From: Escherichia coli
GTDB lineage: Bacteria > Pseudomonadota > Gammaproteobacteria > Enterobacterales > Enterobacteriaceae
Reading direction: 5' to 3' (one strand)
Length of the DNA: 64,000 nucleotides
NCBI RefSeq assembly: GCF_003334405.1
Contig: NZ_QOWM01000001.1
The notes under the pieces were generated by a model. It was not told the origin of the DNA, ran no database searches, and was given only the letters and a program-made list of their open reading frames with translations. Below are positions 2,986 through 55,339 of the stretch, piece after piece (the first letter of the stretch is position 1; each line of letters opens with the position of its first letter). The position numbers were made by a program, and so were the translations under genes.

Positions 2986-3843
2986 TCAGGCTACCGCTTT
3001 TTCAGTTTGTTGCGCTTTCAGCCAGGCGATCTCTTCTGCCCAGATATCCGGGTTGATGGTTTCGAGGATCAGCGGAATGCCGTCGAAACGGTCGTCCTGC
3101 ATGATCCAGCGGAACGCATCATGACCGATATTGCCTTCACCGAGGCTATGATGGCGGTCAACGCGGCTGCCAAAGGTGCTTTTCGCATCGTTAAGGTGCA
3201 TCCCGCGCAGATACTTAAAGCCGACAGTACGGGCAAAATGCGCGAATGTTTTCTCGCATTCGGCTGGAGTACGCAAATCATACCCGGCAGCGAAAGCATG
3301 GCAGGTATCAATGCAGACGCCGACGCGGGATTTATCTTCCACGCCGTCGATAATCGCCGCGAGATGTTCGAATTTAAACCCTAAGTTACTGCCCTGACCG
3401 GCGGTGTTTTCTATCACCGCTGTCACACCTTGAGTTTTATCCAGCGCAATGTTGATGGATTCGGCAATACGCGCAAGGCAATCCTCTTCTGAAATCTGCA
3501 TCAGATGGCTGCCAGGGTGGAAGTTGAGCAAAGAAAGCCCCAGCTGTTCGCAACGCTGCATTTCATCTATAAAGGCATCGCGCGATTTTTCCAGAGCTTC
3601 AGTGACCGGATGTCCGAGGTTAATCAGATAACTGTCGTGGGGAAGAATTTGCGCCGATGTGTAGTGATATTTTTCACAGGCGGCTTTGAATTCATCGATG
3701 GTTTGCGTCGTGAGCGGTGCGGCACGCCACTGACGTTGGTTTTTGGTGAACAAGGCAAACGCGGTTGCGTCGATTTCGGCGGCGCGAATTGCGGCATTTG
3801 CCAGACCGCCAGCAGCACTAACGTGCGCTCCAATGTATTTCAT
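2986..3843 (-). CDS. nfo: endonuclease IV (AP endonuclease)
   Basis: 285-aa [16 protein letters not shown]..., length and sequence match Nfo. Confidence 0.95.
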
Positions 3844-29640: not shown

Positions 29641-29813
29641 AAAGTTCTTTGACGTTGCATTGCTGGCGTAAATGTCAGCAATGCAGCATTTCCTCACGAT
29701 TCTCCTTTGACGATCGCACTTTTTGCTCGTTATGATGGCGTCGCTAGCCTCAGTAAATCCTTACTCCGGCGGTGCGCAACCCGTGCGCGTGAACCACTAT
29801 CTGAATGCTCATC

Positions 29814-46762: not shown

Positions 46763-49034
46763 GGAAAACTCCCCAGTTTTGCAGCGATGCCAGTGCCTGC
46801 TGTTCGAGTTGTTGATGATGTGCAATGGCTTGTGGTGGACAATGCAACGGCATTTGCAGCGCCGAAACGGGAAGTTGCGCCAGTTGATAATGCTCAAGCA
46901 CCTGATGCGCCAGCGTCCCGCGTTCTCGTGGTGGTAGCCAGGCCATCGCCGCGCGTAAATCGGGCAGGGCGTTAATAAAATCGTCGTCACTTAGTTGATT
47001 CAAATGGCTGCTGAAACCGGCGATAAATGCCGGCTGACAGGCCAGTTGATGACGGGCTAATGCCAGCAAACCGTGCAGCGCTTCGCCGGATTGTGCCGGG
47101 AAAAACTGTGCCAGCATCGCCAGCGCCGCTTCGGCACTGGCGTTGGGATGTTCCAGACGCATCAGTGCGCCAAGAGCCGCGCCGCGATCCAGCGCCGGGG
47201 CATGAATCGCCTGACTGCGTCGCTCCAGTAAGGCTACCGCCGCAGAAAGCGAAACGCCGGGTAAATTAACGCCGCTATGTAGATCGCGCAGGATATGGCA
47301 AAGCGCCTGCCAGCTATGCAGGTGAGCGTGAAACTCCTTTTCATCCGGTTTGCCGTTGGATTCACACAGCCAGAGCGTGCGATCGATAGCCGCGCATAAC
47401 GTCGTTTGTAATATCTGCGCGCCTTGCATACCGCTAATTTCATCCAGCCGCCATAAGGCATATAGCACTTCCAGCGCCTGGCCCATTTCGGCAAATTGAT
47501 TTTCCTGGGCGATTAATAATGTGAGTTGTTCCAGTAATTGTTGACTGAAGGACGCCAGACCCGCTAACGCCGCCTGGCTAAGACATGTGGTGATACTGCC
47601 GATTCCACCCGCGTCCAGCATATCGGCTTCTAATTTATGGCGTGCGGCTTCCTGGAGTGTTGCACCAAAGCAGGCGGCCTCAATCAATGCCGCATGCTGG
47701 CTAAGTGGGCGGGTTAATTTCCAGCGTTCTTCACCGTTGCCTGCAAGTGTCAGTGTGCTTCCCTGCTGGCGTACAATCCCTGGGATCTCCAGTATTGCCA
47801 GACGATGTAACACCTGACTTTGCGCTAGTCCATTGGGGGTAAAGCGATTTAAGGTAAGCTCCGCCGGAAGAGAGATTGCGGTACGTTCCAGTTCGCAGGT
47901 GACATCTTTTGGCAGAGGCGGTTGTGGCGTAGAAGGGGCAAGTTTACCGAATCCGTCACCCGCTAATGTGTCTATCAACGTTAGCAGAATCGGATCGGTG
48001 TCGGGATGAATAACTCCGCGATAGCTCCACGGCAACGGCGCGTTCAGGGCTTCTTTAATCAGCGAGCCTGCTATGGCATCCAGCCAGTCAGTGCGTAACG
48101 GTAGTTTATGTCCGCGCAACTGTGCCAGCGCCATCGCATGCAGATGAGCGGCAGCCATATCCGCGGTCGAAGCAGGCAAGTGGTGTTGGCGCAAACGGGT
48201 AAGAACCGTTTTTAGCAGTTGTTCTCCCGCCTGCTGTAAGCCCCACTGCCAGCACCAGCTTTGCCAGACCGGGGCAGGCATTCCTGAAAGGTATCCTGCC
48301 AGCACATCAAGGCGCTTTTCACTGTAGGGTGTGAGATAACAACCTGTAACGGCATCTGCCAGCGAGGGCAATTCTGGCTTGTTAATGTCCTGCGGGCATT
48401 CGCGCCACATTTTTGCCAGTGCCGGAGCGTGCCAGCCACCGCAGACGACTAACACGTCGCCATTATTTTGCTGCACCGCCCATGCAATCCAGCGAGCCAT
48501 AAAGGCTTCGCGCTGACGATTGAGTGCATCGCCGGGGAAATCGCCCCGCAGTTGGGCAAAATAGTGCGCCAGTGCAGAGGGTAATGCAGTTTGCTGGCTT
48601 TCATCTTCGAACAAGTGATCCCACAGGTTATCGCTGTTATCCATGCGGGTGGCACGCAGCAGCAAGGTCTGGCTTTCCTCTTGCGTATCAGGCGAATCGT
48701 CCTCTTCTTCACTCTGTGCCCAGCAAGGCAAATCGATGAAGTAAGTTTGTGCCTGAATACGACGAGCGGCTTGTAGCGCCTGCCACTCCGGCGAAAATTC
48801 AGCAAATGGCGTCCAGGCACCACGCCCGGGGGCTGCACCGTCCTGATACTGGCAATAACTGTAAATAGCTACCGGAAGCTGGTGGGCTAAAAACAGTTCG
48901 TCTACCCGGTCATTAAAATCAGCCGGGCCTTCAATCAACACGTATCGTGGCCGCTGGCTTTCGATTAACGATTTCACCAGCCGGGCGCAGGCCGGACTAT
49001 GATGCCGGATGCCGACAATTAACGGCTCGCTCAT
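46755..49034 (-). CDS. yehM: large protein of unknown function YehM
   Basis: ORF 46755..49175; start at Met48 (MSEPLIVGIRHH...) giving 759 aa, 10 nt downstream of the yehL stop. Confidence 0.8.
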   Translation of the reverse strand: MSEPLIVGIRHHSPACARLVKSLIESQRPRYVLIEGPADFNDRVDELFLAHQLPVAIYSYCQYQDGAAPGRGAWTPFAEFSPEWQALQAARRIQAQTYFIDLPCWAQSEEEDDSPDTQEESQTLLLRATRMDNSDNLWDHLFEDESQQTALPSALAHYFAQLRGDFPGDALNRQREAFMARWIAWAVQQNNGDVLVVCGGWHAPALAKMWRECPQDINKPELPSLADAVTGCYLTPYSEKRLDVLAGYLSGMPAPVWQSWCWQWGLQQAGEQLLKTVLTRLRQHHLPASTADMAAAHLHAMALAQLRGHKLPLRTDWLDAIAGSLIKEALNAPLPWSYRGVIHPDTDPILLTLIDTLAGDGFGKLAPSTPQPPLPKDVTCELERTAISLPAELTLNRFTPNGLAQSQVLHRLAILEIPGIVRQQGSTLTLAGNGEERWKLTRPLSQHAALIEAACFGATLQEAARHKLEADMLDAGGIGSITTCLSQAALAGLASFSQQLLEQLTLLIAQENQFAEMGQALEVLYALWRLDEISGMQGAQILQTTLCAAIDRTLWLCESNGKPDEKEFHAHLHSWQALCHILRDLHSGVNLPGVSLSAAVALLERRSQAIHAPALDRGAALGALMRLEHPNASAEAALAMLAQFFPAQSGEALHGLLALARHQLACQPAFIAGFSSHLNQLSDDDFINALPDLRAAMAWLPPRERGTLAHQVLEHYQLAQLPVSALQMPLHCPPQAIAHHQQLEQQALASLQNWGVFHV

Positions 49035-49044
49035 GCATCTTTCC

Positions 49045-50133
49045 TCACGGCAGGCGGTGGCGGGCTTGATAATAAGCCTGCCAGTGAGCTTCTTTATGTG
49101 TGGCGACACGCTGTTCGAAGTAACGGCGCAGACGAGCGCGATCTTCTTCGTTATCTTTGACGATGGTTCCGGCAATACAGTCCACCAGGTCGGCAGGCTC
49201 CCCCGCGCGATTCGCTAAAAACCAGGCGCGGACGCCCACGGCGTGGGCCACGTTCACGGCTTCAGCCGTGGACATAATCGCTGTTAGTGTATCCATTGAC
49301 GTTTTCTTTTCGCCGTTGGCACGCAGATCGCGGAAGGTGCGGACCAGTAACTCCAGTACCGCGTCAGGCACTTTATGCGGAATACCGCTATGGGCCAGCA
49401 AACGCGCCGAAGCACTGGCGACAAGCTCCAGCTCCTGGGCGAAATCCATAATCGGAAAGACAGTTTCAAAATCGAAGCGACGCTTTAGCGCAGCACTCAT
49501 TTCATTGACGCCGCGATCGCGGGTATTGGCAGTGGCAATAATATTAAAGCCTTCTCGCGCATAGAGCTGACTGGCTTCACCAGTGAGTTCCGGCACCGTC
49601 ATCACCCTGTCAGAAAGCATGCCTAACAGACAGTCTTGCACTTCCAGCGGTGTACGCGTTATCTCTTCAAAACGGACGATTTTGCCGTCGCGCATTCCCT
49701 GGTAAAGCGGGGCAGGGACCAGCGCTTCCGTTGATGGACCATGATTGATAAGCAGGGCGTAGTTCCAGCCGTACTTGATTTGATCTTCGGTAGTAGATGC
49801 GCCGCCCTGGACGGTTAACCCGGCATCGCCGCTAATAGCGGTTGCCAGTAATTCAGACAGGAGAGATTTTGCGGTGCCAGGTTCCCCCACCAACATCAAA
49901 CCGCGTCCGGTGGCAAGAGTGACTAACATACGTTCGACAGCGGAGGGACTAATCACCACTTTACGGCTAATATTTTGCGCGCTATCGCCAAGGATAAAAG
50001 CACGGGCCGCAGGCAAACTTAACTGCCAACCGGGCGGGCAAGGTGCGTTATCATTTTGTTTTAATTTTGCCAGTTCATCGGCGTATAACACAGCAGCAGG
50101 CGGACGCTGCAGATGATTATTCTGCGGTGACAT
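49045..50133 (-). CDS. yehL: MoxR-family AAA+ ATPase YehL
   Basis: ORF 49045..50199; start at Met23 (MSPQNNHLQRPP...) giving 362 aa with aggga RBS; Walker A GEPGTAKS. Confidence 0.9.
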   Translation of the reverse strand: MSPQNNHLQRPPAAVLYADELAKLKQNDNAPCPPGWQLSLPAARAFILGDSAQNISRKVVISPSAVERMLVTLATGRGLMLVGEPGTAKSLLSELLATAISGDAGLTVQGGASTTEDQIKYGWNYALLINHGPSTEALVPAPLYQGMRDGKIVRFEEITRTPLEVQDCLLGMLSDRVMTVPELTGEASQLYAREGFNIIATANTRDRGVNEMSAALKRRFDFETVFPIMDFAQELELVASASARLLAHSGIPHKVPDAVLELLVRTFRDLRANGEKKTSMDTLTAIMSTAEAVNVAHAVGVRAWFLANRAGEPADLVDCIAGTIVKDNEEDRARLRRYFEQRVATHKEAHWQAYYQARHRLP

Positions 50134-50241
50134 ATATTCATCCCTGAAATGTATTAATGAAATAAACGATATTTTACGCGCAATAAATGTTTGGCGCATT
50201 AGTTGTTTGAGCGAAAAATATCTGGAAAGCAGATCACAGTA

Positions 50242-50327
50242 AATAAAAAAACCTGCTGGTGAGGCAGGTTCTTTTATTTACTATTTTCAGGCCTAACACC
50301 ACAGCCTGTGCAACATCGTGTTCCAAC
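50242..50327 (-). ncRNA. putative Orz-type antitoxin sRNA, copy 1
   Basis: minus-strand promoter (-35 ttgcaa 50357-62, -10 tataat as plus attata 50334-39), ~85-nt transcript ending at hairpin 50250-50270 plus U-run; 5' end complementary to zor-1 5' UTR (50474-50493). Confidence 0.5.
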
Positions 50328-50565
50328 GAACGAATTATAACCATGGCTGGACCCCGTTGCAATTAAGATAATGAGATTTATAATCCAGACCGTTGGGACG
50401 TTGCGCCGGATCGAACCTATTTCAAGTCCTGGCTACCGGACGGGTGGTGCTGCAGGTGGTGCCCTGATCCGGAGTGCAACATCGTGGTCCAACATACGTA
50501 AACCAGTATCGACAGGCAGTGTAAGGGTAAGGTGCTGGTGTTGCGCTCCTTAATAAGGAGAGCGG

Positions 50566-50655
50566 ATGGACACGCTGACACAAAAGTTAACCGTGCTCAT
50601 TGCTGTACTGGAGCTATTAGTAGCTCTGTTACAGTTGATTGATTTGTTGAAGTAA
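50566..50655 (+). CDS. 29-aa Zor-like type I toxin peptide (MDTLTQKLTVLIAVLELLVALLQLIDLLK), copy 1
   Basis: SD aggag 6 nt upstream; plus promoter -35 50357-62 and -10 tataat 50379-84 gives a ~175-nt 5' UTR; terminator hairpin 50679-50701. Confidence 0.7.
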   Translation: MDTLTQKLTVLIAVLELLVALLQLIDLLK

Positions 50656-50851
50656 CGGGCAAATTGAAACGCATCTAAGGGGGAAAACCGCTTCCCCCTT
50701 TAATAAAATGATTACTGTTTTTATTAATTCATCATATAACTCATGTTTATTTATAAGTTCATCGATTTTATATTCAACGCACCATTTGACCGGGATGTGA
50801 ATATTTATGGTGGGCTATTGGCAAAAAATATCTGGAAAGTAGATCGCAGAA

Positions 50852-50935
50852 AATAAAAAAACCTGCTGGTGAGGCAGGTTCTTTTATTTACTACAGTGAC
50901 GCTAACTTGCTGATTGTGCAACATTTCGTACCAAC
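50852..50935 (-). ncRNA. putative Orz-type antitoxin sRNA, copy 2
   Basis: same architecture as copy 1 (-10 as plus attata 50942-47, -35 ttgcaa 50965-70, terminator 50860-50880); 18-nt stretch gcaacatttcgtaccaac matches zor-2 5' UTR at 17 of 18 positions. Confidence 0.5.
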
Positions 50936-51173
50936 GAATAAATTATAACCATATCCACACTCCATTGCAATTCAGTGAATGAGATTTATAATCCTGCCCG
51001 TTGGGAGGTTGTGCCGGATCGGACCAATTTTAAGTCCTGGCTGCTGGACGGGTGGTGCCGCAGGCGGTGCCCTGATCCGGAGAGCAACGTTTCGTACCAA
51101 CATACGTAAACCAGTATCGACAGGCAGTGTAAGGGTAAGGTGCTGGTGTTGCGCTCCTTAATAAGGAGAGCGG

Positions 51174-51263
51174 ATGGACACGCTGACACAAAAGTTAATC
51201 GTGCTCATTGCCGTACTGGAGTTATTAGTGGCTCTGTTACGGTTGATTGATTTGTTGAAGTAA
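51174..51263 (+). CDS. 29-aa Zor-like type I toxin peptide (MDTLTQKLIVLIAVLELLVALLRLIDLLK), copy 2
   Basis: SD aggag 6 nt upstream; -10 tataat 50987-92; terminator hairpin 51287-51309. Confidence 0.7.
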   Translation: MDTLTQKLIVLIAVLELLVALLRLIDLLK

Positions 51264-51316
51264 CGGGCAAATTGAAACGCATCTAAGGGGGAATACCGTT
51301 TCCCCCTTTAATAAAG

Positions 51317-51637
51317 CTATTTTTCTATTTGTTGGATGAATATATTCTGTAGTTCACGATTAAAAATTGCTATTACAGTTTCAGGTGATTCACCTCGTAA
51401 TTTCCGCTCATCAATACACTCATCTCTTATATAAATCAACGCATCATTTATTAGCGGGTCAGCATCTTCTCGATCACGTTGATGAAATGTTGGATGTAGC
51501 CGGAATCGCTCCAGTCGATAGACGGAACCTGTAAATAATTCAGAGCATTTATGGATCTCAAGTCTGAAGGAAAACGGATCTTCAGGTACAGGGACCTCAT
51601 AATCGTAAATAGCAACCAGCTCTTTTTGCACGATCAT
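51317..51637 (-). CDS. yehK: protein of unknown function YehK
   Basis: 106-aa ORF 60 nt downstream of yehI on the same strand. Confidence 0.75.
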   Translation of the reverse strand: MIVQKELVAIYDYEVPVPEDPFSFRLEIHKCSELFTGSVYRLERFRLHPTFHQRDREDADPLINDALIYIRDECIDERKLRGESPETVIAIFNRELQNIFIQQIEK

Positions 51638-51697: not shown

Positions 51698-54600
51698 TTA
51701 ATGGAAAATGACGTCAGGTGCGCTTAACGCCTCACTCAAATCAAACACATCAAGTTCGGCAAAAGTGACGGATTTATTGTCACGGTACACTCGAAGAGAA
51801 CGGAAGCTCATTAGCGCTTTGCTATCAACATTGTAGTGGTTAAAACCGGGTGAAAACTTAAGGACCAGCCGGTACTCACCCAGGTCATAGACAAATGCGT
51901 CCTCATAGCCTGACTCCCAGCCTTTGTATCGCATTCCCATAAGTTGCCCAACGGTAGCGGATTTACCTTCCCAGCGAGTCAGGCTGTTACTGGTTGACTC
52001 GTCAGGTGTGAGCAGCACCGTGCGGCGCGACAACTGGCGAAAAGGCGGCATAATTTCGTAATCGGCAAAAAGCTGTGCAAATTCACTGCGCATTTCTGCT
52101 GTCATTTCTAACGGGTGGGCAATGCCAATCAGAGCATCCGCAGGAAGGTCAATGGGCTCATCCTGCGCATTGCAGAACTCCCCCTCTGCGGCCACACGAA
52201 AGGCGTTGAGTAAACGACGCGGTTCATTTGCCGGATAACCCCCCCATATTAATCGCTGGGTAACCAGGCGGGTAAAGGGATGATTAACAAACAGAGAATG
52301 AAAATCTGCCAGCGACCAGCGTCGGGTGGTACGTAGGGCAGCTTCAAGACGCGGGAGCAGGTTTTTGCTCACCTGAGTAGCATCTTTTTTTAGCCCTTTT
52401 AGTCGGGCCAGTGCCTCGGGCGCTTTCAGTTGATCGTCATCGGCACGCAACCGGGGAACACTTTTCTGGCGAACGTTTTGTTGATCAAAGATAACCGGGT
52501 TGAGGTTTTCATCGAAGCGAACGGTAAACTGCCGGGGACCAAAATCAAAAATCAACGCCTGCGGATCATCAAGACCCAGTGTTGGGACTAATCTGTCCGC
52601 TAACTCTTCCTGGCTTAGCCCGCGATTTTCTGCGACCACCTGAAGAAATTCCGCTGCGTTTTCACGTAATGAAGAGGATTTCGCCCGTTGTGATACATGA
52701 TGCAGCTGTATCAGCGCCATATCATTATTCATCAAGGTAAGTATATTCAGACCAATGACAGCACGGGCAGATTTGCCTTCTTGTGGCCAGGCGAGGATCT
52801 GTGTCGTCAGATCCCGAGCCGTGCTTTCGTCACCAAAGAGACTTAACGCCAGAAATGCCCAGTTGTCTTTTGCGGGGGCACCAGCTTGTTGCCACGCAGT
52901 GAAGAGATCCCAGGCAAAAGCGGCCAGCGTTTGTGGCTGGCAAAACGTTTTCAGTTGTTCCAGCCCGCTATAAAAACGTCCCCCCTGGGTAAAGCGCAGC
53001 ATTTCGCCGATAATTTCCAGAGCGTCATCGGTAACAGGCTGATTATTAGTGATAAGTCGAGGCCTGGACCACATTGCCGGATGCCAGAAATCAGGGGCTT
53101 TTGGAATGCGTGCCGGGTAAATGTCCATTGGACCCTGTTTCAGTAATTGTTCCAGGGCAGGCCATACATCTTTACGCTGCCAACGATTGGCTACAGTTTG
53201 TAGCAATTCGCCATGCCCATGTTCGTAAAGTAAACGCAGGGCAAGTAATGCAGCTTCGCTATTATCGCTGGATTTGGTGAAGACAAGAGGGATAAGTGCA
53301 GTAGCCGTATGTTCCGGCCAATGTAAAATCCACTGGCGAGCCAGACCACGCTGCACCGCGAAACGTCGCCAGACGCGGGCAACGGGCAGGGCCAGTTCTG
53401 TTGCGCCAAAATTTAAAATTAACGGAAATGTTTCTTTTGGACGATGTGAAAAAGCCAACATCAGACCTGGTAGCGCATCCAACCCGAGGATACTAAGAAA
53501 ATAGTCCTCACCCGCGAACAGATGTTTTTTCTCATTGATACGCAGCCAGAAGGTCAAAGCCATCTCACGCGGCAACTGTGCCAATAAATACAGGTTCCAG
53601 ACACTCTTTTCCGGACGATAACGTGAGTAGTTGTCATTTTCCCATATGTTAATTAACGCTTCTATGTGACCGCTGCGGAGCGCCTGTTCTGCTAATTGTG
53701 CTTCCGGGGAGTTCCAGCCATTCAGGATCTCTTCAACCCGCCCCTGGTAGTAATGCCACTGAACAATGAGTGAATTGCGTGCAGCATCCAGTTTTCCGGG
53801 GAGTATATAATTCAGAAACAGCCATACATCATCCCCAAAACCCAGTTCCTGTAATACAACTCGCCCACTTTTTTGTTCCATGCGTTCCGCAAGAGATTCC
53901 GTGCTGAAATAACGGGCAGACTCAGTGGAGGCAAGCCTCTCTTGTTCGCCTGGTTGCCAGTAAACTTGCGGGGTTAATTCGAGCGGTGCCAAATCAAGAC
54001 GTGGAGCTGTCATTTTTTTCTTACTACGCCACGGTGGTGAAACGAGGATTTCAGGCAGATTGCTGTTATCGGTGCCATCAATAACCGGTTTGGGCGGTGC
54101 CAATAAATAACTATTCAGTACTGCCCGGGCTTGAGTACTTAACCACTGCATCACCTCTTCTGCCAGTTGTGGCTGCGATGCCATCAGCGTTTGTAACAGC
54201 GTACGCCAGTATTCATCGCGTGCTTTTTGCTGGGCAGGCAGCTTTTTGTCTTCGATGATTGGATAACCAGGGCGGGCTGGTGGTTCTTTTAACGCCAGCA
54301 GTTCTGCCAGTGCCGCGAGCGTCGCGTGGGGGAAGTTTTTACTGTATTTAGCCACACGTTGCAGGCTGGGTTTGTTTTTATCAGCCACCAGTAGCAAGGT
54401 GTGGATGACCTGCGGATGGTTAATTTGTACCAACAGACTGCCGCAATCTTCTTTATGGGCATACATCGCGAGGCGCGGAATGGCTGCCAGTCCTTGTTCG
54501 CGCAAAAGGGCGGCGCAGGCCGCGTAGCCGAAGTGGTTTTTTTGTGACATGTAGCTGGCTTCGCGATCGCTAAATACGTCCAGGCCCCAGTATCGTTCGA

Positions 54601-55330
54601 GTTTTTTTACCGCCGTATTATCAGTAGCAACGACCTTTAACCACTCCTTTGAATGGAGACTTGACCGGGAGCTTTCAAGACTGGCGAGTTCATTGGCTAT
54701 TTCAGGCTTTTCCGGGAGGATCAGCGCAATAAAAGGACGGCGAATTTTGGGTATTCCTGGCAGTGCGGCAATGAGTTTATCGGCACAACGCTGCCAGCAA
54801 CTTTCCTCTGCCAGCGACAGATGCTTACGCAAACGGAGAGCGAAATCGTTATAGGTCGCGGAGCCATAACCGTAGCCATAGTCCTCGTCCTGATACTGCA
54901 AAGTGACGACCAGTGAATCACTCTCATAACGCCGCGCAATGCACTGACGCGCCATCACTACATCCGTCGCATATTCCAGCCCCTCTTGTTGGACGATTTC
55001 GTCGAGCAACTGTTGGCTGTCATTTTGCGCGATACAGGCTAGCGCCGCCATTGTCCGGGCCGGGATTGAGGGTTTGTGTTCGCCGATCAAGTTGATGGCC
55101 TGCGTGATGGCGGACTGCCACTCCAGTAAAAAATTTTCATAACGCCAGACAATGTTTTTTTTCTTCTCAGCTTTTTGTAGCAATTCATCACCCAGTGTCT
55201 GAATGATGCTTTCAGTGATAACAGGCACTGGTTCGCCCGGCCAATTGCGATGGCTGAGTGGTGTTTTACCCTTTTTATATTTCAGTTCCAGTTGGGCGTT
55301 ATCAGCCAGCCACGGTAATTCCTTGTCCAT
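51698..55330 (-). CDS. yehI: giant MolR/YehI-family protein YehI (no WGR-like N-terminus)
   Basis: 1210-aa ORF; C-terminal region paralogous to the two upstream ORFs; start 9 nt after the upstream stop with ggaaagag RBS. Confidence 0.85.
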   Translation of the reverse strand: MDKELPWLADNAQLELKYKKGKTPLSHRNWPGEPVPVITESIIQTLGDELLQKAEKKKNIVWRYENFLLEWQSAITQAINLIGEHKPSIPARTMAALACIAQNDSQQLLDEIVQQEGLEYATDVVMARQCIARRYESDSLVVTLQYQDEDYGYGYGSATYNDFALRLRKHLSLAEESCWQRCADKLIAALPGIPKIRRPFIALILPEKPEIANELASLESSRSSLHSKEWLKVVATDNTAVKKLERYWGLDVFSDREASYMSQKNHFGYAACAALLREQGLAAIPRLAMYAHKEDCGSLLVQINHPQVIHTLLLVADKNKPSLQRVAKYSKNFPHATLAALAELLALKEPPARPGYPIIEDKKLPAQQKARDEYWRTLLQTLMASQPQLAEEVMQWLSTQARAVLNSYLLAPPKPVIDGTDNSNLPEILVSPPWRSKKKMTAPRLDLAPLELTPQVYWQPGEQERLASTESARYFSTESLAERMEQKSGRVVLQELGFGDDVWLFLNYILPGKLDAARNSLIVQWHYYQGRVEEILNGWNSPEAQLAEQALRSGHIEALINIWENDNYSRYRPEKSVWNLYLLAQLPREMALTFWLRINEKKHLFAGEDYFLSILGLDALPGLMLAFSHRPKETFPLILNFGATELALPVARVWRRFAVQRGLARQWILHWPEHTATALIPLVFTKSSDNSEAALLALRLLYEHGHGELLQTVANRWQRKDVWPALEQLLKQGPMDIYPARIPKAPDFWHPAMWSRPRLITNNQPVTDDALEIIGEMLRFTQGGRFYSGLEQLKTFCQPQTLAAFAWDLFTAWQQAGAPAKDNWAFLALSLFGDESTARDLTTQILAWPQEGKSARAVIGLNILTLMNNDMALIQLHHVSQRAKSSSLRENAAEFLQVVAENRGLSQEELADRLVPTLGLDDPQALIFDFGPRQFTVRFDENLNPVIFDQQNVRQKSVPRLRADDDQLKAPEALARLKGLKKDATQVSKNLLPRLEAALRTTRRWSLADFHSLFVNHPFTRLVTQRLIWGGYPANEPRRLLNAFRVAAEGEFCNAQDEPIDLPADALIGIAHPLEMTAEMRSEFAQLFADYEIMPPFRQLSRRTVLLTPDESTSNSLTRWEGKSATVGQLMGMRYKGWESGYEDAFVYDLGEYRLVLKFSPGFNHYNVDSKALMSFRSLRVYRDNKSVTFAELDVFDLSEALSAPDVIFH

Positions 55331-55339
55331 GCTCTTTCC

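What the first reader, a model, noticed from the sequence alone, without database searches (positions are those of the whole stretch)
50214..51313. Tandemly duplicated Zor/Orz-like type I toxin-antitoxin module
Two ~490-bp direct repeat units each hold a plus-strand promoter, a ~175-nt 5' UTR, a strong SD and a 29-codon ORF for a hydrophobic peptide (MDTLTQKL[T/I]VLIAVLELLVALL[Q/R]LIDLLK), followed by a hairpin terminator. Each unit also has a divergent minus-strand promoter that shares the -35 hexamer and drives a ~85-nt transcript ending at a terminator with a U-run. This is the architecture of type I toxin plus divergent sRNA antitoxin pairs. The peptide resembles the ZorO/ZorP toxins described in E. 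coli O157:H7, as far as I recall.
Basis: partly seen in the sequence, partly recalled or inferred. Interest (0 to 1): 0.55.

Follow-up and report, generated by a model that had tools for sequence, protein, structure and literature searches.

The report
Known E. coli zor-orz toxin-antitoxin pair

Summary
Two ~490-nt units (50211-50703 and 50821-51311, 87% identical, 608-610 nt apart) lie between yehL and yehK in an E. coli chromosome 99.97% identical to strain UMNF18. Each unit has a 29-codon hydrophobic ORF behind a 174-nt 5' UTR and a strong SD. Each also has a divergent 81-83-nt sRNA gene. The two promoters of a unit share one palindromic -35 hexamer, TTGCAA. Both sRNAs match Rfam RF02083 (OrzO-P antitoxin) far above the gathering score (99.9 and 88.8 bits against 60). 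Both peptides are 28/29 identical to the published ZorO toxin. The V1 nucleotides (+9 to +11) assign copy 1 to zorP-orzP (ACG) and copy 2 to zorO-orzO (GAA). Each sRNA 5' end pairs best with its own mRNA at +83..+102 (-34.0 and -31.3 kcal/mol, against -18.9 and -24.4 for the non-cognate pairs). That site lies in the published "EAP" standby region. The mechanism was worked out experimentally in O157:H7 EDL933 (Wen 2014, Wen 2017, Bogati 2022), and the distribution across E. coli was surveyed in 2024. The only local features are rare peptide alleles (Q23 in ZorP, I9 in ZorO). Verdict: supported, already known, low interest.

The parts
50245..50327 (-). orzP-type antitoxin sRNA gene (83 nt): 5' seed, weak middle hairpin, 12-bp terminator hairpin plus U7
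   Evidence: Rfam RF02083, 99.9 bits, 50245-50320. V1 (+9..+11) is ACG, the OrzP signature per PMC3919570. Fold. The start at 50327 is inferred from the -10 position and from the V1 numbering.
50334..50362 (-). orzP promoter: -35 TTGCAA (50362-50357), 17-nt spacer, -10 TATAAT (50339-50334)
   Evidence: Promoter scan, 10/12 matches. The same hexamers are reported as >=99% conserved across E. coli zor/orz loci (PMC11264685).
50357..50384 (+). zorP promoter: shared palindromic -35 TTGCAA (50357-50362), 16-nt spacer, -10 TATAAT (50379-50384)
50392..50565 (+). zorP 174-nt 5' UTR. Holds the OrzP target at 50474-50493 (+83..+102, inside the EAP region) and an anti-SD/SD hairpin (CUCCUU 50546-50551 paired with AAGGAG 50555-50560).
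   Evidence: Duplex -34.0 kcal/mol, 19 pairs with one A.G mismatch. The minimum-energy fold pairs +1..+22 with the EAP region and sequesters the SD. This agrees with structure probing in PMC5397157.
50566..50655 (+). zorP-type toxin ORF, 29 aa, MDTLTQKLTVLIAVLELLVALLQLIDLLK (rare Q23 allele)
   Evidence: 28/29 identical to ZorO. The exact DNA allele is present in 38 of 5426 genomes.
50677..50700 (+). zorP 3' hairpin (AAGGGGGAA...UUCCCCCUU), no U-run. It ends a ~309-nt mRNA.
   Evidence: Transcripts of ~310 and ~280 nt are reported for zorO.
50704..50820 (.). non-repeated AT-rich spacer between the two units
   Evidence: No significant similarity elsewhere in the window.
50855..50935 (-). orzO-type antitoxin sRNA gene (81 nt)
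   Evidence: Rfam RF02083, 88.8 bits, 50855-50928. V1 is GAA, the OrzO signature. Fold.
50942..50992 (.). divergent orzO / zorO promoters: orzO -10 at 50947-50942 (-), shared -35 TTGCAA at 50965-50970, zorO -10 at 50987-50992 (+)
51000..51173 (+). zorO 174-nt 5' UTR. OrzO target at 51084-51101 (+85..+102). SD AAGGAG at 51163-51168.
   Evidence: Duplex -31.3 kcal/mol, 18 contiguous pairs including one G.U. A 174-nt UTR and the EAP region +73..+102 are given in PMC5397157.
51174..51263 (+). zorO-type toxin ORF, 29 aa, MDTLTQKLIVLIAVLELLVALLRLIDLLK (I9 allele)
   Evidence: The exact DNA allele is present in 54 of 5426 genomes.
51285..51308 (+). zorO 3' hairpin, 9 nt from the convergent yehK stop codon (51317)

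Best explanation
The region is the chromosomal zor-orz locus of E. coli: two tandem type I toxin-antitoxin pairs, zorP-orzP (50245-50700) followed by zorO-orzO (50855-51308), between yehL and yehK.

Each zor gene is transcribed as a ~309-nt mRNA. Its 174-nt leader folds so that the 5' end pairs with the +73..+102 'EAP' region and the SD sits in a small hairpin, so the primary transcript is poorly translated. Removal of the first 28 nt exposes the EAP region, a proposed ribosome standby site, and activates translation of a 29-aa inner-membrane peptide. When overproduced, that peptide depolarises the membrane, depletes ATP and stops growth.

The divergent 81-83-nt Orz sRNA pairs through its first 18-20 nt with the 3' part of the EAP region of its own mRNA. 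This blocks translation and triggers cleavage that is partly RNase III-dependent. Sequence differences in the seed (V1: GAA against ACG), matched by differences in each target, keep the two pairs insulated from each other.

Shown here: the anatomy, the family membership, the cognate-specific pairing potential and the predicted leader fold. Taken from published experiments on the EDL933 orthologue: toxicity, rescue, RNase III dependence, processing and the standby role. Still open in the literature: the physiological role. Multi-copy zor-orz improves growth in aminoglycosides.
For: - Rfam RF02083 (OrzO-P) hits at 99.9 and 88.8 bits, gathering score 60, covering model positions 1-76 of 76.
- Peptides are 28/29 identical to ZorO, MDTLTQKLTVLIAVLELLVALLRLIDLLK (PMC6669753).
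- The units align column for column with the two copies in O157:H7, in the same yehL-yehK gap.
- V1 is ACG in copy 1 and GAA in copy 2, as defined for OrzP and OrzO.
- Four 10/12 promoters form two divergent pairs, each sharing TTGCAA. These are the same hexamers reported as >=99% conserved.
- ATG minus the inferred +1 gives 174 nt.
- Cognate duplexes are -34.0 and -31.3 kcal/mol. Non-cognate duplexes are -18.9 and -24.4. The best of 500 shuffled seeds reaches -24 to -27.5. The targets fall at +83..+102, inside the published EAP region.
- The predicted fold sequesters the EAP region and the SD.
- Differences between the copies are patterned. The Orz terminator and UTR +103..+174 are 100% identical. 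The seed and its target are 77-80% identical and change together. The ORF has 3 synonymous and 2 non-synonymous differences.
- The zor ORF is present in about 3320-3390 of 5426 complete E. coli genomes, median 2 copies. This agrees with the published survey.
Against: Nothing contradicts it. Caveats follow.
- No expression or toxicity data exist for this strain.
- The copy-1 peptide carries Q23. Position 23 lies in the ALLRL stretch needed for toxicity. R23L is non-toxic while R23E stays toxic, so the potency of this allele is unknown.
- The peptides match no NCBIfam model, and RefSeq leaves the genes unannotated. That is an annotation gap, not counter-evidence.
- Transcript ends are inferred from consensus positions and from the published numbering. 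They were not mapped here.
Confidence: 0.97

Rival explanations
1. One of the two pairs, most plausibly copy 1 (zorP-type, Q23), is a decaying or non-toxic duplicate. Its sRNA and mRNA persist but no longer form a working toxin-antitoxin pair.
For: - Q23 replaces the arginine of the ALLRL motif, which is required for ZorO toxicity.
- R23L abolishes toxicity.
- The allele is rare, 38 of 5426 genomes.
- About 30% of E. coli genomes, including K-12, have already lost zor and keep only orzP.
- In the passages read here, toxicity and rescue were shown for zorO-orzO only.
Against: - The ORF, SD, promoters, leader fold and 19-of-20 cognate pairing are all intact.
- R23E remains toxic, so loss of the positive charge alone is not disabling.
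- Most differences between the two ORFs are synonymous.
Confidence: 0.12
2. It belongs to a different divergent type I family (DinQ-AgrB, ShoB-OhsC or TisB-IstR) and only resembles zor-orz.
For: - The organisation is the same: a divergent sRNA, a long structured leader, and 18-21 nt of pairing.
- A ~113-nt segment of the zor leader has 71-74% identity to a plasmid-borne dinQ-type leader.
Against: - Above the gathering score, the only Rfam family matched here is OrzO-P.
- The peptides are 28/29 identical to ZorO.
- The locus is orthologous in position and sequence (98.8% identity) to the O157:H7 locus.
Confidence: 0.01
3. It is a non-functional intergenic duplication, with ORFs and promoter-like hexamers that arose by chance.
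For: Very short ORFs and promoter-like hexamers are common by chance. The scan expects ~3 promoter-like sites in a region of this size.
Against: - All four promoter sites fall exactly in the two predicted divergent pairs.
- Rfam E-values are about 1e-14 to 1e-17.
- Seed and target change together between the copies.
- The elements are conserved in thousands of genomes.
- The orthologue has been studied experimentally.
Confidence: 0.01

Closest known systems
zorO-orzO / zorP-orzP of E. coli O157:H7 EDL933 (Fozo 2010; Wen, Won & Fozo 2014, PMC3919570; Wen, Harp & Fozo 2017, PMC5397157; Bogati 2022, PMC9860968)
   Same: - Same chromosomal site (yehL-yehK), copy order and promoter hexamers.
- Same 174-nt leader and the same seed and target sequences. 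The pairing regions are identical to those of O157:H7 strain 1130.
- Same Orz terminator and SD hairpin.
- About 98.8% nucleotide identity over the locus.
   Different: Only allelic differences.
- ZorP here is T3/Q23, against S3/R23 in O157.
- ZorO here is I9, against T9 in O157.
- A few SNPs lie in the leader and the promoter spacer. The yehK-proximal flank also diverges: the O157 match stops at query position 1221 of 1301.
- Both ORF alleles are rare, 38 and 54 of 5426 genomes.
OrzPmg, the orz-only locus of E. coli K-12 MG1655 (PMC11264685)
   Same: K-12 retains the equivalent of window 50100-50425 at 98% identity. That covers orzP, both promoters and the first ~34 nt of the zorP leader.
   Different: K-12 lacks the rest of zorP and the whole zorO-orzO unit. 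The window has both complete pairs.
tisB-istR1 and shoB-ohsC (E. coli divergent type I systems)
   Same: A divergently transcribed sRNA with short (18-21 nt) 5'-end pairing to a long leader. An inactive primary transcript is activated by 5' processing, and a standby site is the sRNA target.
   Different: The toxin peptides and sRNAs are unrelated in sequence. tisB is controlled by SOS/LexA. No such control is known or visible here.

Membership tests
zor-orz type I toxin-antitoxin family | Orz antitoxin sRNA matching the curated OrzO-P covariance model (Rfam RF02083) | tested here: met
   Two full-length hits on the minus strand, 99.9 and 88.8 bits against a gathering score of 60.
zor-orz type I toxin-antitoxin family | 29-aa hydrophobic Zor peptide homologous to ZorO | tested here: met
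   Both ORFs are 29 codons and 28/29 identical to the published ZorO sequence. GRAVY is 1.43 and 1.58, against 1.40 for ZorO.
zor-orz type I toxin-antitoxin family | Divergent zor and orz genes with -35 TTGCAA and -10 TATAAT promoter elements | tested here: met
   One search finds exactly these hexamers for all four genes. They are the conserved elements listed in PMC11264685.
zor-orz type I toxin-antitoxin family | 174-nt 5' UTR with the Orz target inside the EAP region (+73..+102) and the RBS in a stem | tested here: met
   ATG minus the inferred +1 gives 174 nt. Targets lie at +83..+102 and +85..+102. The minimum-energy fold pairs the 5' end with the EAP region and puts the SD in a hairpin, as. 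The transcription start is inferred, not mapped.
zor-orz type I toxin-antitoxin family | Enough cognate pairing for repression (>=15 nt continuous, or >=17 nt with one internal mismatch) | tested here: met
   OrzO with zorO gives 18 contiguous pairs, one of them G.U. OrzP with zorP gives 6 + 13 pairs around one mismatch. The criteria come from the titles of sections 21 and 22 of PMC3919570 and.
zor-orz type I toxin-antitoxin family | V1 nucleotides (+9..+11) that distinguish OrzO (GAA) from OrzP (ACG) | tested here: met
   Copy 2 has GAA and copy 1 has ACG, counted from the inferred +1.
zor-orz type I toxin-antitoxin family | Orthologous chromosomal position in E. coli/Shigella | tested here: met
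   It lies between yehL and yehK, as in O157:H7 strain 1130 and UMNF18.
zor-orz type I toxin-antitoxin family | The peptide is toxic on overproduction and is rescued by the cognate Orz sRNA. Repression is partly RNase III-dependent and Hfq-independent. | not testable with these tools
   Shown experimentally only for EDL933 zorO-orzO. Not shown for this strain's alleles.

The most novel reading that the evidence does not exclude
The rare natural alleles in this lineage may change toxin potency or membrane behaviour. They are Q23 in the ZorP-type peptide, at a residue inside the ALLRL motif where experiments gave substitution-dependent effects, and I9 in the ZorO-type peptide. If so, they would be natural separation-of-function variants for the still-unknown physiological role of zor-orz. 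A second possibility is that read-through from the orzP terminator, which is co-oriented with yehL and ~112 nt upstream of it, couples antitoxin transcription to the yehLMPQ operon.
Probability: 0.1. Interest if true: 0.25.

Novelty: already known. Interest (0 to 1): 0.07.

Why it matters
It matters little as a discovery. The locus, its mechanism and its distribution across E. coli are all published.

It has two minor uses. First, it confirms that a reader working from sequence alone can recover a type I toxin-antitoxin module that standard annotation misses: RefSeq/PGAP lists neither the zor ORFs nor the orz sRNAs in any genome inspected. Second, it flags two rare peptide alleles (ZorP Q23, ZorO I9) that could serve as natural variants in structure-function work on ZorO.

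Tried and rejected
- An NCBIfam scan of both peptides found no family. The 29-aa toxin has no curated model, so this says nothing either way.
- RNA duplex prediction with the full-length sRNA and mRNA gave long, meaningless intermolecular structures. I replaced it with the first 22 nt of each sRNA plus shuffled controls.
- The terminator scan reported the Orz hairpin only on the plus strand. On the minus strand its rule probably absorbs the U-run into the stem. The Rfam structure and the fold show the minus-strand terminator with U7.
- I tested whether the 117-nt spacer between the units is a diverged copy of the yehK-proximal flank or of anything else in the window. No significant match was found.
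- I tested whether the window is UMNF18 itself. The 1301-nt query matches at 100%. Most of the 64 kb aligns at 99.97% (positions 1994-64000, 14 mismatches and 3 gaps) and positions 280-2009 at 99.88%. It is therefore the same lineage or another assembly.
- Weak sub-threshold Rfam hits (STnc370, Thr and Trp leaders) overlap the Orz terminator hairpin. I rejected them as terminator look-alikes.

Full report
**1. What is in the sequence**

The region 50200-51320 holds two direct repeat units, 50211-50703 and 50821-51311. They share 430 of 493 aligned columns (87%) and start 608-610 nt apart. A ~117-nt AT-rich stretch (50704-50820) between them is not repeated.

Each unit carries a 29-codon ORF:
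- 50566-50655 encodes MDTLTQKLTVLIAVLELLVALLQLIDLLK.
- 51174-51263 encodes MDTLTQKLIVLIAVLELLVALLRLIDLLK.

AAGGAG lies 5 nt upstream of each ATG.

The promoter scan of 50100-51400 returned four sigma-70-like sites, all 10/12. They form two divergent pairs, and each pair uses one palindromic TTGCAA as the -35 for both strands (50357-50362 and 50965-50970).

With starts placed 6-7 nt after each -10:
- The plus-strand leaders are 174 nt (50392-50565 and 51000-51173).
- The minus-strand transcripts run 50327->50245 (83 nt) and 50935->50855 (81 nt).

Each minus-strand transcript ends in a 12-bp hairpin followed by U7. Each ORF is followed by a GC-rich hairpin (50677-50700 and 51285-51308) with no U-run. 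That gives an mRNA of ~309 nt.

**2. Identity**

The window is E. coli chromosome, metG to rihB, 99.97% identical to strain UMNF18 over most of its length. The repeats lie between yehL (49045-50133, minus strand) and yehK (51317-51637, minus strand).

Both minus-strand RNAs match Rfam RF02083, the 'OrzO-P RNA antitoxin family'. The matches cover the whole model at 99.9 and 88.8 bits (gathering score 60; E = 9e-17 and 2e-14). Only two other families reach their gathering score anywhere in the 64-kb window, and both lie elsewhere.

The ZorO peptide printed in PMC6669753 is MDTLTQKLTVLIAVLELLVALLRLIDLLK. Each ORF here differs from it at one residue.

The units align column for column with the two copies in E. 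coli O157:H7 strain 1130, which sit in the same yehL-yehK gap.

Wen et al. 2014 define OrzO and OrzP by nucleotides +9 to +11: GAA in OrzO and ACG in OrzP. Counting from the inferred starts:
- Copy 1 reads GUUGGAAC-ACG, so it is orzP.
- Copy 2 reads GUUGGUAC-GAA, so it is orzO.

The locus is therefore zorP-orzP (copy 1) followed by zorO-orzO (copy 2).

**3. Mechanism: shown here versus taken from the literature**

*Shown here.* The first 18-20 nt of each sRNA pair with the leader of the mRNA in the same unit.

| sRNA | Target mRNA | Pairing | Energy (kcal/mol) | Window coordinates |
|---|---|---|---|---|
| OrzP | zorP | 6 + 13 pairs around one A.G mismatch | -34.0 | 50474-50493 (+83..+102) |
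| OrzO | zorO | 18 contiguous pairs, one G.U | -31.3 | 51084-51101 (+85..+102) |
| OrzP | zorO | non-cognate | -18.9 | n/a |
| OrzO | zorP | non-cognate | -24.4 | n/a |

Across 500 shuffled seeds, the means were about -15 to -17 kcal/mol and the best values were -24 to -27.5.

Differences between the copies are patterned:
- The Orz terminator and leader +103..+174 are 100% identical.
- The seed is 80% identical and the EAP/target region 77%. They differ in a matched way that preserves cognate pairing.
- The ORFs differ at five codons, three of them synonymous.

The predicted fold of the full-length mRNA pairs +1..+22 with roughly +72..+102. It also places the SD in a CUCCUU/AAGGAG hairpin.

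*From published experiments on EDL933.*
- zorO overexpression arrests growth, and OrzO rescues it.
- Rescue needs RNase III at high toxin levels but not Hfq.
- The first 18 nt of OrzO suffice for repression.
- OrzP cannot repress zorO, because of the V1 difference.
- The 174-nt leader inhibits translation until the first 28 nt are removed. Removal exposes the EAP region (+73..+102), a proposed standby site that contains the OrzO target.
- OrzO also blocks translation directly.
- ZorO is an inner-membrane peptide that depolarises the membrane and depletes ATP.

The anatomy in this window reproduces every sequence feature on which those experiments rest. I infer the same mechanism for this strain with high confidence.

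**4. Comparison and membership**

All sequence-level defining features of the zor-orz family were tested and met: the Rfam model, peptide homology, promoter hexamers, leader length, target position, pairing thresholds, V1 signatures and chromosomal position. Toxicity and rescue cannot be tested with these tools.

The differences from EDL933/O157 are allelic only:
- ZorP here is T3/Q23, against S3/R23 in O157.
- ZorO here is I9, against T9 in O157.

The exact ORF DNA alleles occur in 38 and 54 of 5426 complete E. coli genomes.

Position 23 lies in the ALLRL stretch needed for toxicity. R23L is non-toxic and R23E is toxic, so the effect of Q23 cannot be predicted.

**5. Distribution**

The zor ORF is found in about 3320-3390 of 5426 complete genomes, with a median of two places per genome, up to four, and 4 places on plasmids.

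Three states appear in my alignments:
- K-12 keeps only the equivalent of 50100-50425, which is orzP, the promoters and ~34 nt of the zorP leader.
- Some strains have a single zorP-type unit.
- Others, like this window, have both units.

All of this matches the published survey: 42% two copies, 25% one copy, ~30% orz-only, the OrzPmg sRNA in MG1655, and one plasmid case.

**6. Verdict**

The feature is already known.

- The sRNAs are 81-83 nt.
- The repeat period is ~609 nt although the units are ~490 nt.
- The zor hairpins lack a U-run.
- Copy 1 is the P pair and copy 2 is the O pair.

Interest is low. The only local points are the rare peptide alleles and the fact that RefSeq annotates none of these genes.

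Noticed in passing
window 50245-51308; also L001, L002: RefSeq/PGAP annotates neither the zor ORFs nor the orz sRNAs in O157:H7 strain 1130, in UMNF18 or in any other listed genome. The 'features under the match' column reads 'none'. NCBIfam has no model for the peptide.
   Followed up: partly
window 50133-50245 (minus strand): The orzP terminator is co-oriented with the yehL start codon (50133) and ends ~112 nt upstream of it. Read-through from orzP would run into the yehLMPQ operon, and the yehL promoter must lie in or near this short interval.
   Followed up: no
L005 (K-12 MC4100) 301-626, equivalent to window 50100-50425: K-12 retains orzP, both promoters and the first ~34 nt of the zorP leader at 98% identity, then jumps to yehK. 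This is the published orz-only 'OrzPmg' state.
   Followed up: yes
window 18003-18080 (+); repeats 17977-18056 and 18093-18172: An Rfam naRNA4 (REP-derived nucleoid-associated RNA) hit at 88.3 bits, inside a pair of 80-nt direct repeats that are ~91% identical.
   Followed up: no
window 29729-29809 (+): An Rfam 'Peptidase-S11 RNA' motif at 72.8 bits, immediately upstream of pbpG (start ~29816). This is a known candidate cis-regulatory leader.
   Followed up: no
window 51698-62185 (minus strand): Three tandem DUF4132 paralogues: yehI at 51698-55330, one at ~55341-58372 that is annotated as frameshifted in UMNF18, and one at ~58385-62185. A 198-nt repeat (58176-58373 and 61989-62186, 88% identical) lies at the start (5' end) of the two upstream paralogues. 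yehP (~45628-46763) is also annotated as frameshifted in UMNF18.
   Followed up: no
window 50566-50655 and 51174-51263: The ORF alleles encoding Q23 (ZorP-type) and I9 (ZorO-type) are rare as exact DNA sequences: 38 and 54 of 5426 genomes. Listed carriers include several pig and swine isolates as well as human, goose and opossum isolates.
   Followed up: partly
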